From a virus, in UHGV virus genome UHGV-1656152: a stretch of 14,310 nucleotides of DNA. One strand, written 5' to 3'. Positions within the stretch are counted from its first letter, which is position 1. Each line of letters begins with the position of its first letter. The position numbers are program-made. Shown in pieces: positions 3,001 through 6,000 of the stretch.

Positions 3001-6000
3001 ATTGAGGTTTATGATCAGAATGGACGACTGGCTGTTCGCATAGGCAGATTACGCTGATCAGGAGGTGAGTATTGGAATACGGTTTTGCCATTTATAACAG
3101 AAATAACGTTAATGTTACGGGCGTGCTTACTCCCATATTTTTCCTGGACAGGTTTACGGCGGAGTCGGGATCAAAAACGTATACGAATAAACCAGAAGGG
3201 AAAACATTGCAGGCAGTCTGTTCATTATTTCCGTGGAATAATGTATTTAAGGACCGGAAAGTACCGAAGATAACCATTAATGGCAATACGGTGATGTGGT
3301 CAAATCTTGAGCAGGGGATGGGGTCATATATTTATACATTCTGGGGGTGAGTTGTATGTATGGTTTAAGCATTACGAAACCAGATGGCAGCTTGTGGATA
3401 AGCCCGGGGTTTACGCCTCAGTGTCTGATCAATAAGGGAACTATTCCGGCGACTGAGAAGGCTTTTTTTAAAACGTCAATTCCGTCAGGAAAAAGTTGTT
3501 TTTTCTTTATCAGAACAGAGAAGAAGGCCGATGTCATGTACACGCATGAACAGATTGATGGATATCATGCCTTAAGGCTTCATCAAATTGTCAGGGGAAC
3601 GAATCCTGGTGTTACGACTGTTTATGCTTTTGCGAATATGGTTACTCAACCTTCTGAGTATGGTATCGCCATGTATAATCCGTTGGGTGAGATGATTTAC
3701 CATGGCGAAATGATGCTGCTTGACGCGAAGTTAATACCTGTTGATATCAAATTTGAAAAGGACCTTGGATATCCATGCGCAATTATGCCTGCACTGGTCG
3801 GGTATTATAACTGGAAAAGAACTCCTTATGATCGACCGATTTATACCACATCCACTGGCGCTACAGGAAATAAAATATATTCCTGTGAGCATTATTCAGG
3901 TGGTGCAACATGGGATATTCGAAAGCCTTATGTAGACAAAGTTCTTGTTATTAATACTTCAATGTATGATTAGCACAATAAAATTTATCAATCATTTTAA
4001 GAAAAATTTTTATTTTTTATTTCCAGGCAGGATGGTAAATAATCAAAAATGTGGAAAGGACAGAGAGAACAATGTTTTTAATATAGGAAGATTCTTAAAA
4101 TGAAAAGTATCACAAAATTTCTTGTGTGCGCAACTCTGGGCTTAGGTGGATTAACTGCACAGGCACATGCTGCATCTGGTGATAGTACCGTATCCCTTGG
4201 ATTCGCTCACCTTCAGCTATCCGGGCTGAATAATTTTGTTAAGGATTTAAGTCTTCATAACCTTGATACCTTTAACAATTTTGTGAATGAAAACTATTTC
4301 AATTCACCTGGAGAATATGACGATGCGTTTGTCCGGGGCCATGATGGTAAAGAGAAAAGTCCCTTGGGAATGAACATTAAGTATCGTTATGAGATTACGG
4401 ATGAGATCGGTGTTATAACCTCTTTTGCATGGGCTCGATCCATGACTAATGCACAGGCATTCATTGATGTTAAGCCTTCCGATCCATCACGAGAGGTAAA
4501 AAAACCGGCAGCTTCAGCGAGAACTGATATCAGGGCTAATTACTGGAGTCTACTATCCGGTCCTTCGTGGCGGTTTAATGAATACCTCAGTGTGTATTCA
4601 ATGGCAGGTGTTGCGGTTGCAAAAGTAACTTATGATTTGAAAGTTAACGACAATCTTAATGGTGGTGTAGGTAGTTTTTCTGAAAGTAACAGCACCAAAA
4701 AAACGTCTATTGCATGGTCTGTCGGCGCGCAATTTAACTTCAATGAAAGTGTTACTATGGACGTCACTTATGAAAGCTCAGGCTCTGGCGACTGGAAAAC
4801 TGATGGTTTATTTGCAGGCATTGGCCTGAAATTCTGAGTAATACCCGACAACATGTCATAACCCGCTGTGATGGCGGGTTTTTTGTTGCCCGTGCAGGGC
4901 AAAAATCGTAGATTATGCGCGGGTGTCTTTCGGCTGATGGCTGGAAGGTGAACCTGAAGGCCTGATGTGGAAAGGCCCCGAGTCAAACATTTTGTTTAAC
5001 CCGAGGCCCTAACCATCATACCTTAAGCAAGTAGAAGGTTAGCGCCTCTCCACTCAGGAGGCAAGCGCTATGTCGCAAAAATCGCTCATCACCGTCACAA
5101 TTTGTATGACGGTAATCTTCACCATCTGGATGTTACACGGCTCGTTGTGTGAGTTCCGGCTGAATTTGTGGGGAGCGGAGTTTGCGGCGTTCTTACAGTG
5201 TAAGCAGTAGGAAAACCGCGACGGGGACGAAAGTCCCCGTCAACTGGTTGCTGAGGTTCAGCCGATATGGCACCCGTTTCTGGTGAGAGAATGGACGACA
5301 AAATTCTCCGGTATATGCAGCGTGTTGTGAGAAATTCCCGCAACCCTGAATTTATGAATGAAGTTAAAGACGCCTGCCTTAAAAAGCAGGCGTTTTGTTT
5401 TGAGGCACCTGATGGCTTTCTGGTGCTGCGTTCTGTGCTCAGTGCTGATGGTATCCCTTATGTTTTGGTGTTGCTGGGCGTGTGTACGGGGAGTAACAGC
5501 GTTGAGCGTTATCTGCCGGAGGTGAAGACATTAACCCGTCTGGCTGGCGGACGCTGGGCTGAATTTCATACGGCAAGACGGGGATTTATCCGGCTGGGAA
5601 AACGTCTGGGCTTTGAGCGAATGCCGGATGATGAGGATGGCTTCATGGTGTTCAGGATAGCGGTCTGACTGCCACTGTATTCATTATCGTGTGTAAACCA
5701 ATTGCAATTCACATTCTGACCCTGCCCCGGCAGGGTTTTTTGTTATCCAGGGGGCCATAATGGGCGGAAAAAAAGGCGGTGGTGATACCAAAGTAAAACC
5801 AACAGCAGCGCAAATAGCACAGGAAGAAGTGGCCTGGAAAGGGTGGCAGGATTATCAAAAAATCCTCCGCCCGGCTGAAGATAACTTCATGGAAAAGGTC
5901 GATGACCTGAACAGTGAGCAGCAGTACGACAATATTGCTGGCACCACAAATCTGGGGTATCAGAAACAGTTTGGCGAAGCACGGAAGGAGCTGGCGGGTA

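What the first reader, a model, noticed from the sequence alone, without database searches (positions are those of the whole stretch)
4886..5266. hok/gef-like type I toxin locus missed by the ORF track
A 46-codon ORF (5070-5210) encodes a peptide with the Hok family hallmark (hydrophobic helix, then SLCEFR...GAEFAAFL). It has a perfect AGGAGG SD, a candidate promoter (TTGCCC-17-TAGATT, 4886-4914) and a perfect 9-bp GNRA-capped hairpin 10 nt after its stop. The octamer TCGGCTGA near the predicted 5' end (4930-4937) is exactly complementary to TCAGCCGA near the 3' end (5258-5265), reminiscent of the 5'/3' fold-back pairing that keeps full-length hok mRNA translationally inert. Unlike plasmid R1 hok/sok, I see no overlapping mok-type reading frame, and the antisense (Sok-like) gene is not clearly identifiable.
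Basis: partly seen in the sequence, partly recalled or inferred. Interest (0 to 1): 0.7.

Follow-up and report, generated by a model that had tools for sequence, protein, structure and literature searches.

The report
Hok-type toxin–antitoxin locus in Stx phage
The 46-codon ORF is a real Hok-family membrane toxin gene with its antisense-RNA antidote, sitting next to lom in a Shiga-toxin phage; the toxin is already annotated and catalogued, and the only unusual point is that the locus lacks the "mok" leader reading frame that the textbook hok/sok system needs.

Summary
ORF 5070-5210 passes Pfam HOK_GEF (33.2 bits against a cut-off of 22). The window comes from a 933W-like Stx-converting phage. 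RefSeq already annotates this exact ORF as "Hok/Gef family protein" (WP_000078907.1). A 2026 bioRxiv catalogue lists the identical peptide as 72_1589, cloned it, and does not list it among the three of 45 tested homologs that were non-toxic. It is not the published hokW-sokW locus; 933W carries both.

The conserved module spans about 4886-5276. Thirty-five non-redundant homologs show compensatory changes for an R1-like RNA switch. The 5' end (4921-4937) pairs with the 3' end (5258-5275) or, alternatively, with a ucb-like box (4969-4979). The 3' hairpin with a GNRA-type loop is also conserved.

The Sok-like gene can be identified on the minus strand. Its promoter, TTGCCT-17-TAACCT, has the same hexamers and spacing as the sokW promoter region. 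The predicted RNA is about 60 nt (5029 to about 4969).

No mok frame exists here, and none is conserved across the subfamily. Folding models suggest that hok's own ribosome site is the switched element. That point is inferred, and I found no description of it in the papers I could search. Overall the locus is ordinary and already known, with a modest regulatory twist.

The parts
4886..4914 (+). Predicted hok promoter: -35 TTGCCC (4886-4891), 17-nt spacer, -10 TAGATT (4909-4914)
   Evidence: Read from the sequence. The -10 (TAGATT, TAAATT, TAGAAT) and a TTGCC(C/G) -35 at the same spacing are conserved in homologs. At 8 of 12 it falls below the consensus-scan threshold. No transcript data.
4921..4937 (+). 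Predicted mRNA 5' end, the tac-like element (GGGTGTC + TCGGCTGA)
   Evidence: The Rfam sok model alignment starts at 4921. The element pairs with the 3' end in the full-length fold and with 4969-4979 in the truncated fold. Alignment columns 44 and 45 covary with both partners.
4969..4979 (+). ucb-like box GGAAAGGCCCC, the alternative partner of the 5' end
   Evidence: The tac/ucb helix is 94.8% paired, with 3 pairs changed on both sides. It is the second-best duplex partner of the 5' end in 29 of 33 homologs.
4969..5029 (-). Predicted Sok-like antisense RNA of about 60 nt: 5' single-stranded tail, 18-bp GC-rich hairpin (5010 to 4972), then UUUCC
   Evidence: Fold energy -28.1 kcal/mol, z = -5.21. 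All 35 homologs have the same layout. It is collinear with the annotated 933W sokW. Both ends are inferred.
5036..5064 (-). Sok-like promoter: -35 TTGCCT (5064 to 5059), 17-nt spacer, -10 TAACCT (5041 to 5036)
   Evidence: The hexamers and spacing are identical upstream of the annotated sokW start in 933W. In Sp5, mutations around the sokW -10 abolished antitoxin activity (PMC8621323). The promoter is conserved in all 35 homologs.
5003..5048 (+). GAGG box (5003-5006, in the position of the R1 mok Shine-Dalgarno) and the Sok-target hairpin GAGGCCCTAACC / GGTTAGCGCCTC
   Evidence: Inverted repeat I2. The hairpin forms in the truncated fold only and is 89% paired across homologs.
5041..5069 (+). 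Hairpin that sequesters the hok Shine-Dalgarno (AGCGC/GCGCT plus TCTCC/GGAGG). It contains the SD AGGAGG at 5056-5061.
   Evidence: It forms in the full-length fold and in the Sok-masked fold. Helix 8 is 99.4% paired and helix 9 is 71% paired. The RBS opening energy is 14.8 / 9.8 / 14.4 kcal/mol for full-length / truncated / truncated with Sok.
5070..5210 (+). hok-family toxin CDS, 46 aa
   Evidence: Pfam PF01848, 33.2 bits against GA 22. The protein equals WP_000078907.1 and catalogue entry 72_1589. The ORF is intact at 45-47 aa in all 35 homologs.
5220..5241 (+). 9-bp hairpin with a GAAA loop, the predicted 3' end protector of the processed (truncated) mRNA
   Evidence: Perfect inverted repeat I10. 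It is 99.7% paired, with 5 of 9 pairs changed on both sides. Most homologs have a GNRA loop (GAAA, GCAA, GTAA, GTGA, GCGA). The role is assigned by analogy with R1 (PMC9841398).
5243..5257 (+). 3' segment that pairs with the Sok-target region (about 5019-5035) in the full-length fold
   Evidence: Helix 6 of the full-length structure is 80.8% paired, with 7 of 13 pairs changed on both sides.
5258..5275 (+). fbi-like fold-back element (TCAGCCGA + GGCACCC). Homology to other loci ends here.
   Evidence: The homology boundary is shown.

Best explanation
Window 4886-5276 is a complete hok/sok-type type I toxin-antitoxin cassette. It belongs to Hok peptide cluster 72 of the 2026 catalogue. It is carried as an accessory gene between lom and the L0129 homolog of a 933W-like Stx-converting phage, and it is separate from the published hokW-sokW locus.

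Proposed mechanism:
1. A promoter at 4886-4914 makes an mRNA of about 355 nt starting near G4921.
2. In the full-length RNA the 5' end (4921-4937) is clamped to the 3' end (5258-5275). The Sok-target region pairs with 5243-5257, and the hok ribosome site sits in a hairpin (5041-5069). The RNA is therefore neither translated nor bound by antisense RNA.
3. Slow 3' trimming back to the hairpin at 5220-5241 frees the 5' end, which then pairs with 4969-4979. The GAGG-box hairpin (5003-5048) forms and the hok ribosome site becomes easier to open.
4. A constitutive antisense RNA of about 60 nt (5029 to about 4969, promoter TTGCCT-17-TAACCT) binds the processed mRNA. This presumably causes RNase III cleavage, and in the folding model it pushes the ribosome site back into its hairpin.
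5. If the antisense RNA disappears, the 46-aa peptide is made, inserts into the inner membrane and kills or lyses the cell.

Unlike R1 hok/sok, there is no mok leader frame, so the control must act on hok's own ribosome site or on mRNA stability.

Basis of each step:
- Shown here: toxin family membership, conservation and covariation of the RNA pairings, conservation of the antisense promoter and hairpin, and absence of mok.
- Taken from a preprint: toxicity of the peptide.
- Inferred: transcript ends, 3' processing, RNase III involvement, the direct ribosome-site switch, and the biological role in the phage.
For: - **Toxin.** Pfam HOK_GEF 33.2 bits, above GA 22, E = 4e-8. The protein is identical to proteins annotated Hok/Gef. 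The identical peptide 72_1589 was cloned as LRP157. The text names only three other sequences as non-toxic among the 45 tested.
- **Distinct from hokW.** The hokW leader is absent from the window. In 933W, hokW/mokW/sokW lie at 58460-58734, while this locus lies in the unannotated gap between lom and L0129.
- **RNA structure.** The full-length fold has z = -7.26. On 35 non-redundant homologs, 87.6% of cells are paired against about 40% when the partners are slid. Forty-two pairs change on both sides, and 0 of 500 shuffles reach that.
- **Switch.** The tac/fbi and tac/ucb helices share covarying 5' columns. An alignment-free duplex search gives the 3' end as best partner in 32 of 33 homologs and ucb as second best in 29 of 33.
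- **Sok.** The promoter hexamers and spacing are identical to the sokW promoter region, and the tail-plus-hairpin layout is present in all 35 homologs. The Rfam sok model hits 4921-5081 with E = 3e-6.
- **mok.** No candidate start exists in the window, and none is conserved in the subfamily. The same scan finds the expected mok ATG in the R1-like and hokW controls.
- **Direct ribosome-site switch.** The mean opening energy is 13.8 (full-length), 9.9 (truncated) and 14.0 (truncated with Sok masked) kcal/mol. The direction holds in 30 of 32 homologs. In the R1-like and hokW controls it is the mok site that switches, not the hok site.
Against: - There are no expression data of any kind for this locus. 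Both promoters fall below a simple sigma-70 consensus threshold and were not listed by the scan.
- The Rfam sok hit (35.1 bits) is below the gathering score of 59.
- The Sok-like hairpin is followed by only UUUCC, a weak terminator tail.
- No + strand intrinsic terminator was found by the scan between 5276 and about 5375, so the full-length 3' end is not defined.
- In R1, mok translation is mandatory for hok translation (PMC9841398), so a mok-less locus could be translationally silent.
- The ribosome-site switch rests on thermodynamic models only. A cruder measure, the mean unpaired probability, showed only a small effect.
- The SD-sequestering hairpin shows almost no compensatory change, and it overlaps the Sok promoter, which confounds its conservation.
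- The shuffle control of the covariation test is inflated by shared ancestry.
Confidence: 0.85

Rival explanations
1. The locus is a silent remnant. Having lost mok, which R1 needs to translate hok, the toxin is never made from its native mRNA, and the RNA elements are kept only by recent common descent.
For: No mok frame is present. R1 genetics show that mok translation up to the hok SD is mandatory. The hok ribosome site is predicted to be largely paired in every state.
Against: The ORF is intact at 45-47 aa in all 35 loci, which go down to about 62% nucleotide identity. Compensatory changes keep the tac/fbi, tac/ucb and 3' hairpin pairings. The SD is strong (AGGAGG or AAGGAG) and 8 nt from the ATG. 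The predicted opening energy of the ribosome site falls by about 4 kcal/mol in the truncated form in 30 of 32 homologs. The peptide is reported toxic when expressed. The locus is present in 196 phage records.
Confidence: 0.1
2. It is the already published hokW-sokW system of Sp5/933W.
For: It is the same kind of phage and the same toxin family, and the antisense promoter hexamers are identical.
Against: HokW is 51 aa and starts MKQQKAM, whereas this peptide is 46 aa. The hokW leader has no match in the window, even allowing 3 mismatches. In 933W, hokW lies about 12.6 kb away on the opposite strand and has an in-frame mokW.
Confidence: 0.01
3. It is a chance ORF within the lom 3' region. The hairpins are only terminators and the 8-mer complementarity is coincidental.
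For: An 8-mer inverted repeat in about 400 nt is expected by chance, and a competing 8-mer exists (I13). Neither promoter passes the consensus scan.
Against: The Pfam hit is above the curated threshold. A 375-nt module is conserved in different genomic contexts: Stx phages, the ends of P2-like prophages, plasmids and Salmonella chromosomes. The structure is supported by covariation.
Confidence: 0.02

Closest known systems
hok/mok/sok of plasmid R1 (parB), the type I toxin-antitoxin paradigm
   Same: Hok/Gef-family toxin. The 5' tac element pairs with either a 3' fbi or an internal ucb box. There is a GAGG box in a target hairpin, a 3' stem-loop at the end of the processed mRNA, and a cis-antisense RNA of about 60 nt whose promoter overlaps the hok SD region. 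The full-length and truncated folds switch as described for R1.
   Different: There is no mok reading frame: all three frames are closed between 5010 and 5042, and no start follows. The peptide is 46 aa rather than 52. In the models hok's own ribosome site switches, whereas in the R1-like control it stays closed. The locus is on a phage, not a plasmid.
hokW-mokW-sokW of Stx2 phage Sp5/933W (Takada et al. 2021, PMC8621323)
   Same: A type I hok/sok locus carried by the same phage type. The antisense promoter is identical (TTGCCT-17-TAACCT), with the transcription start about 7 nt after the -10. 933W carries both loci.
   Different: The toxin differs (51 aa, HokC/HokD-like). mokW is present in frame. 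The position and strand differ: hokW is near attR, while this locus is next to lom. hokW-sokW has experimental data on RNase III and Hfq dependence, mitomycin C-triggered production and phage release. This locus has none.
Hok cluster 72 of Escalera-Maurer et al., bioRxiv 10.1101/2025.08.07.668861 (entries 72_1589 and 72_1621)
   Same: The window peptide is identical to 72_1589, which was cloned (LRP157) and tested. The copies from P2-like prophages correspond to 72_1621-type peptides.
   Different: That study deliberately analysed only the coding sequence and left mok, Sok and the mRNA elements unexamined. The RNA architecture described here is therefore not in it.
HokA of E. coli K-12 (NCBIfam NF007290)
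   Same: It is the best-scoring named Hok equivalog for this peptide.
   Different: It scores 38.4 bits against a cut-off of 89, so this is not HokA. The named chromosomal Hok peptides I checked are 49-51 aa.
[quoted passage not shown]
   Same: The mechanism proposed here resembles it. Successive mRNA folds hide or expose the toxin's own ribosome site, 3' processing activates the mRNA, and no leader peptide is involved (the contrast is drawn in PMC9841398).
   Different: The toxin family and RNA sequences are unrelated. The resemblance is functional and inferred only from folding models.

Membership tests
Hok/Gef toxin family (Pfam PF01848) | The peptide scores above the curated gathering threshold of the family profile | tested here: met
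   33.2 bits against 22, E = 4e-8, covering profile positions 6-42 of 42
Hok/Gef toxin family (Pfam PF01848) | The peptide is toxic when expressed | not testable with these tools
   Literature only. The identical peptide 72_1589 was cloned, and the preprint text names only 19_179, 60_1482 and 69_1540 as non-toxic among the 45 tested.
R1-type hok/mok/sok regulatory architecture | The 5' tac element pairs with a 3' fbi element in the full-length mRNA | tested here: met
   4921-4927 pairs with 5269-5275, and 4930-4937 with 5258-5265. In the second helix 6 of 8 pairs change on both sides. The 3' end is the best duplex partner in 32 of 33 homologs.
R1-type hok/mok/sok regulatory architecture | Alternative tac/ucb pairing in the 3'-truncated mRNA | tested here: met
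   The truncated fold pairs 4921-4931 with 4969-4979. The helix is 94.8% paired, and the same 5' columns covary with both fbi and ucb.
R1-type hok/mok/sok regulatory architecture | A cis-encoded antisense Sok RNA, with its own promoter, opposite the leader | tested here: met
   Tested at sequence level only. TTGCCT-17-TAACCT is followed by a tail-plus-hairpin RNA in 35 of 35 homologs. The hexamers are identical to the sokW promoter region. Expression was not testable.
R1-type hok/mok/sok regulatory architecture | A mok leader reading frame that starts after the GAGG box, reads into the hok ribosome site and is translationally coupled to hok | tested here: not met
   Stops lie at 5010, 5024, 5032 and 5040, and no ATG, GTG or TTG follows them before the hok start. 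Nineteen of 35 homologs have no candidate at all, and the rest are inconsistent. The R1-like and hokW controls give the expected ATG.
R1-type hok/mok/sok regulatory architecture | A stable stem-loop marking the 3' end of the processed mRNA | tested here: met
   5220-5241 is 99.7% paired, with 5 of 9 pairs changed on both sides. The processing itself was not testable.
Rfam RF01794 (sok) | Score at or above the gathering threshold | tested here: not met
   35.1 bits against 59, E = 3e-6, on the + (leader) strand at 4921-5081. This is a significant but sub-threshold relative.
hokW-sokW of Sp5/933W | Sequence identity with the published locus | tested here: not met
   The hokW leader is absent from the window. 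The two loci lie at different places in 933W.
HokA (NCBIfam NF007290 equivalog) | Score at or above the equivalog cut-off | tested here: not met
   38.4 bits against 89
Hok cluster 72 (Escalera-Maurer et al. 2026 catalogue) | Peptide identical to, or at least 60% identical with, cluster members | tested here: met
   Exact string match to 72_1589 in Table S2 and in the supplementary alignment files

The most novel reading that the evidence does not exclude
The cluster-72 hok loci, including this Stx-phage copy and the copies at the ends of P2-like prophages, are a natural mok-less variant of hok/sok. The GAGG box that serves as the mok Shine-Dalgarno in R1 survives only as a structural switch element. 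Under this reading, 3' processing and the Sok-like RNA control hok's own ribosome site directly: the segment 5037-5048 pairs either with the GAGG box, which gives the ON state, or within the SD-sequestering hairpin 5041-5069, which gives the OFF state. I found no description of such a variant in the papers I could search, and the newest Hok catalogue explicitly left mok and Sok unanalysed.
Probability: 0.45. Interest if true: 0.45.

Novelty: already known. Interest (0 to 1): 0.27.

Why it matters
For annotation, 933W-type Stx phages carry two different hok/sok loci. The original 933W record annotates only hokW/mokW/sokW and leaves the gap between lom and L0129 empty. Studies that delete hokW-sokW, such as the reported two-fold effect on phage release, left this second toxin in place.

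For mechanism, a conserved hok lineage that works without mok would show that translational coupling to a leader peptide is not essential to the hok design. It would also provide a simpler natural system for studying the full-length to truncated mRNA switch.

Neither point changes the overall picture. This is a known kind of element, and its toxin has already been catalogued and tested.

Tried and rejected
- **Rfam at gathering thresholds** found nothing in the whole window. Only the permissive search gave the sub-threshold sok hit.
- **The sigma-70 consensus scan** listed neither the hok promoter nor the Sok promoter. Both were placed by homology instead.
- **Identity with hokW-sokW** was tested and rejected.
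- **A mok frame** was sought in all frames of all 35 homologs, including far-upstream starts. The occasional 42-79-codon frames are not conserved among close relatives. A non-canonical ATC start at 5015 gives only 3 codons in the window, read directly from the sequence.
- **Mean unpaired probability** of the hok ribosome site gave a weak signal: 0.27, 0.35 and 0.26. I replaced it with opening free energy and added R1-like and hokW controls.
- **Tool limits.** The first version of the folding script timed out.
- **The one-genome-per-species scan** gave only 7 loci, three of them from non-enterobacterial assemblies that are probably contaminated.
- **Literature searches** for mok-less hok loci and for named relatives (hokX, hokG) found nothing matching this 46-aa group. 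This covers only the open-access library, not T1TAdb itself.
- **The hairpin as a + strand terminator** was rejected because no T-run follows it.
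Full report
**1. The observation**

- The 46-codon ORF runs from ATG 5070 to TAG 5208-5210. It appears only when ORFs under 60 aa are listed.
- AGGAGG lies at 5056-5061, 8 nt before the ATG.
- TTGCCC (4886-4891), 17 nt, TAGATT (4909-4914) is present.
- The perfect 9-bp hairpin with a GAAA loop is at 5220-5241. It starts 9 nt after the stop codon.
- TCGGCTGA (4930-4937) is complementary to TCAGCCGA (5258-5265).

The octamer alone is not beyond chance. The same 3' sequence also matches CGGCTGAA inside the coding region (I13). 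The simple promoter scan lists neither of the two promoters I propose below. The case for the locus therefore rests on homology and covariation, not on these motifs.

**2. What it is**

The peptide passes the curated Pfam Hok/Gef threshold, 33.2 bits against 22, E = 4e-8. NCBIfam places it nearest HokA but far below that model's cut-off, 38.4 against 89.

The window is the accessory region of a 933W-like Stx-converting phage.
- The 581 bases around the locus match 196 phage records and 1,550 of 5,426 complete E. coli genomes.
- The neighbours are a tail-tip fibre protein, an Ail/Lom protein and a large polyvalent protein.
- The exact ORF is already annotated "Hok/Gef family protein": WP_000078907.1 in strain FORC_069 (100% identical DNA) and in O157:H7 strain Z1812, and QDF15718.1 in phage Lyz12581Vzw.

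A 2026 bioRxiv catalogue of 1,264 Hok peptides lists the identical sequence as 72_1589, in a high-abundance cluster. The authors cloned it as LRP157. The text names only three other sequences as non-toxic among the 45 tested. The toxin is therefore known.

**3. It is not hokW-sokW**

The published type I system of Sp5/933W, hokW-sokW (PMC8621323), encodes a 51-aa HokC/HokD-like peptide. Its leader has no match in the window. In 933W it lies at 58460-58734 on the other strand, with an in-frame mokW.

The present locus falls in the gap between lom and L0129, which the original 933W record leaves unannotated. 933W-type phages thus carry two different hok loci. The catalogue reports that only 3.5% of hok-bearing phages have two.

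**4. Extent and relatives**

DNA similarity to other loci runs from about 4901 to about 5275. The same roughly 375-nt module sits in several other contexts:
- downstream of ogr at the end of P2-like prophages;
- on plasmids;
- in Salmonella, Citrobacter, E. albertii and E. marmotae.

This spread is typical of a self-contained cassette. I assembled 35 non-redundant copies, each under 97% identical to the others and down to about 62% identical to the window.

**5. RNA architecture**

*Fold-back.* The predicted full-length RNA (4921-5276) folds far better than shuffles: -155.3 kcal/mol, z = -7.26. The fold closes the 5' end on the 3' end.

On the 35-sequence alignment, 87.6% of cells are paired, against about 40% when the partners are slid. 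Forty-two pairs change on both sides, and 0 of 500 shuffles reach that. Six of the 8 octamer pairs are compensatory. The outer helix never varies.

*Switch.* Removing the last 33 nt changes the predicted fold. The 5' end now pairs with GGAAAGGCCCC (4969-4979), and the hairpin GAGGCCCUAACC/GGUUAGCGCCUC (5003-5048) forms. The tac/ucb helix is 94.8% paired. The same 5' columns covary with both the 3' partner and the internal partner, which is the signature of two mutually exclusive pairings.

An alignment-free duplex search agrees. The best partner of the first 18 nt is the 3' end in 32 of 33 homologs, and the second best is the ucb box in 29 of 33.

*3' hairpin.* The hairpin at 5220-5241 is 99.7% paired, with 5 of 9 pairs compensatory. 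Most homologs keep a GNRA loop. No T-run follows it on the + strand. I read it as the counterpart of the stem-loop that protects the 3' end of the truncated R1 hok mRNA (PMC9841398). That assignment is by analogy.

**6. The antisense gene**

On the minus strand, TTGCCT (5064 to 5059), 17 nt, TAACCT (5041 to 5036) has the same hexamers and spacing as the sequence upstream of the annotated sokW start in 933W. In Sp5, mutations around the sokW -10 abolished antitoxin activity.

Every one of the 35 homologs has such a promoter. In each it is followed by an RNA of about 60 nt, with a single-stranded 5' tail, a 16-18-bp GC-rich hairpin and a short U-containing tail. The window's version folds at -28.1 kcal/mol, z = -5.21. 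The Rfam sok model, which is built on the leader strand, hits 4921-5081 with E = 3e-6 but stays below its gathering score. The transcript ends are inferred.

**7. No mok**

Stops at 5010, 5024, 5032 and 5040 close all three frames, and no ATG, GTG or TTG follows before the hok start. Across the subfamily, 19 of 35 loci have no candidate at all. The remaining candidates are inconsistent even between close relatives. An in-frame N-terminal extension is blocked by an invariant TAG.

The same scan recovers the expected mok ATG in an R1-like locus and in hokW. In R1, translation of mok up to the hok SD is mandatory, so this lineage must work differently or be silent.

**8. How it may work without mok (inferred)**

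I computed the free energy needed to open the hok ribosome site (the equivalent of 5055-5082) in 32 homologs.

| State | Mean opening energy (kcal/mol) |
|---|---|
| Full-length RNA | 13.8 |
| Truncated RNA | 9.9 |
| Truncated RNA with the Sok target masked | 14.0 |

The direction holds in 30 of 32 homologs. In the R1-like and hokW controls it is the mok site that opens on truncation (15.2 to 7.4, and 18.0 to 9.5). Their hok sites show no such switch.

This suggests that the segment 5037-5048 pairs in one of two ways. It can pair with the GAGG box, which exposes the ribosome site. Or it can join the SD-sequestering hairpin 5041-5069, which hides the site. Antisense binding to the GAGG box would favour the hidden state.

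There are caveats. These are thermodynamic models. A cruder accessibility measure gave little signal. The SD hairpin shows almost no compensatory change, and it overlaps the Sok promoter.

**9. Is it a live gene?**

The ORF is intact at 45-47 aa in all 35 loci. The SD is strong. The RNA pairings are kept by compensatory change. This argues against a decayed remnant, but no expression data were available.

**10. Biological role**

I cannot test this. By analogy with hokW-sokW, which promotes lysis and phage release after induction, and with R1 hok/sok, which gives post-segregational killing and partial T4 exclusion, the cassette could do one of three things. It could stabilise the prophage, contribute to lysis, or exclude other phages. 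Deletion studies of hokW-sokW left this second locus in place.

**11. Verdict**

The toxin gene is already annotated, catalogued and tested, so the finding is already known. The part I did not find described is the mok-less regulatory layout of this Hok lineage. The latest catalogue explicitly left that aspect unexamined, and my literature searches did not turn it up. I could not consult T1TAdb.

Noticed in passing
window 5267-5668, with 5367-5396: The annotated downstream ORF (the L0129 homolog, 133 aa, no Pfam hit) starts at an ATG inside the hok 3' fold-back element. It contains a strong bidirectional intrinsic terminator (GACGCCTGCC..GCAGGCGT followed by TTTTGTTTT). Among 15 phage variants, third-position-biased variation is clear only downstream of 5402 (10/4/23 by codon position). 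The true start of this gene may therefore lie further downstream, and the terminator may end hok read-through transcripts.
   Followed up: partly
window 6697-6701, ORFs 6727-12945 and 12821-13900: Relative to E. coli FORC_069, the window lacks about 2.9 kb: window position 6701 corresponds to L002 position 10862, and window 6697 resumes at L002 13763. 933W and phage Lyz12581Vzw show similar gaps. The missing segment covers the L0131-L0133 homologs and the 5' end of the large polyvalent protein gene. The result is one 2072-aa ORF (LPD5, LPD1 and MuF_C domains), followed by an overlapping 359-aa LPD38 ORF in another frame.
   Followed up: partly
window 1-160: The first 160 bases do not align with FORC_069, 933W or Lyz12581Vzw, although all three match from position 161 onwards.
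   Followed up: no
window 4883-4905: A small palindrome, TTGCCC GTGCA GGGCAA, flanked by T and A runs, lies immediately after the lom terminator (4860-4880) and overlaps the hok -35. It is present in 933W but not in the copies from P2-like prophages. It could be a second terminator hairpin or an operator.
   Followed up: no
L034 (about 2338-2390) and L101 (about 515-560): In these two homologous loci the promoter and 5' tac segment are replaced by unrelated sequence, while the Sok-like gene, hok and the 3' elements remain. They are natural 5'-truncated variants that should lack the fold-back clamp.
   Followed up: no
L105 (801-941 and 1291-1431), L106 (801-941 and 1295-1435), L065 (about 1862 and 2501): Tandem duplicate cluster-72 hok cassettes, about 490-640 bp apart, occur in Salmonella and in one prophage contig.
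   Followed up: no
L006, L007, L009: Contigs labelled Xanthomonas pisi, a Planococcaceae MAG and Vagococcus sp. carry E. coli- or Salmonella-type hok cassettes. L006 is 99% identical to the window. This probably reflects contamination of those assemblies.
   Followed up: no
window 5157-5164: CGGCTGAA inside the hok coding region repeats the tac octamer and is also perfectly complementary to 5257-5264. It offers a third possible partner for the 3' element in the Stx-phage subgroup only.
   Followed up: no
window 5010-5029 compared with homologs (alignment A2, columns about 127-150): The stretch complementary to the single-stranded 5' tail of the Sok-like RNA is the most variable part of the leader between subgroups (CATCATACCTTAAGCA, CGTCTACCCTAAGCA, ATATCTACCTTAAGCA). 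This would limit cross-talk between the several copies that one genome can carry (up to 9 matching places per genome).
   Followed up: no
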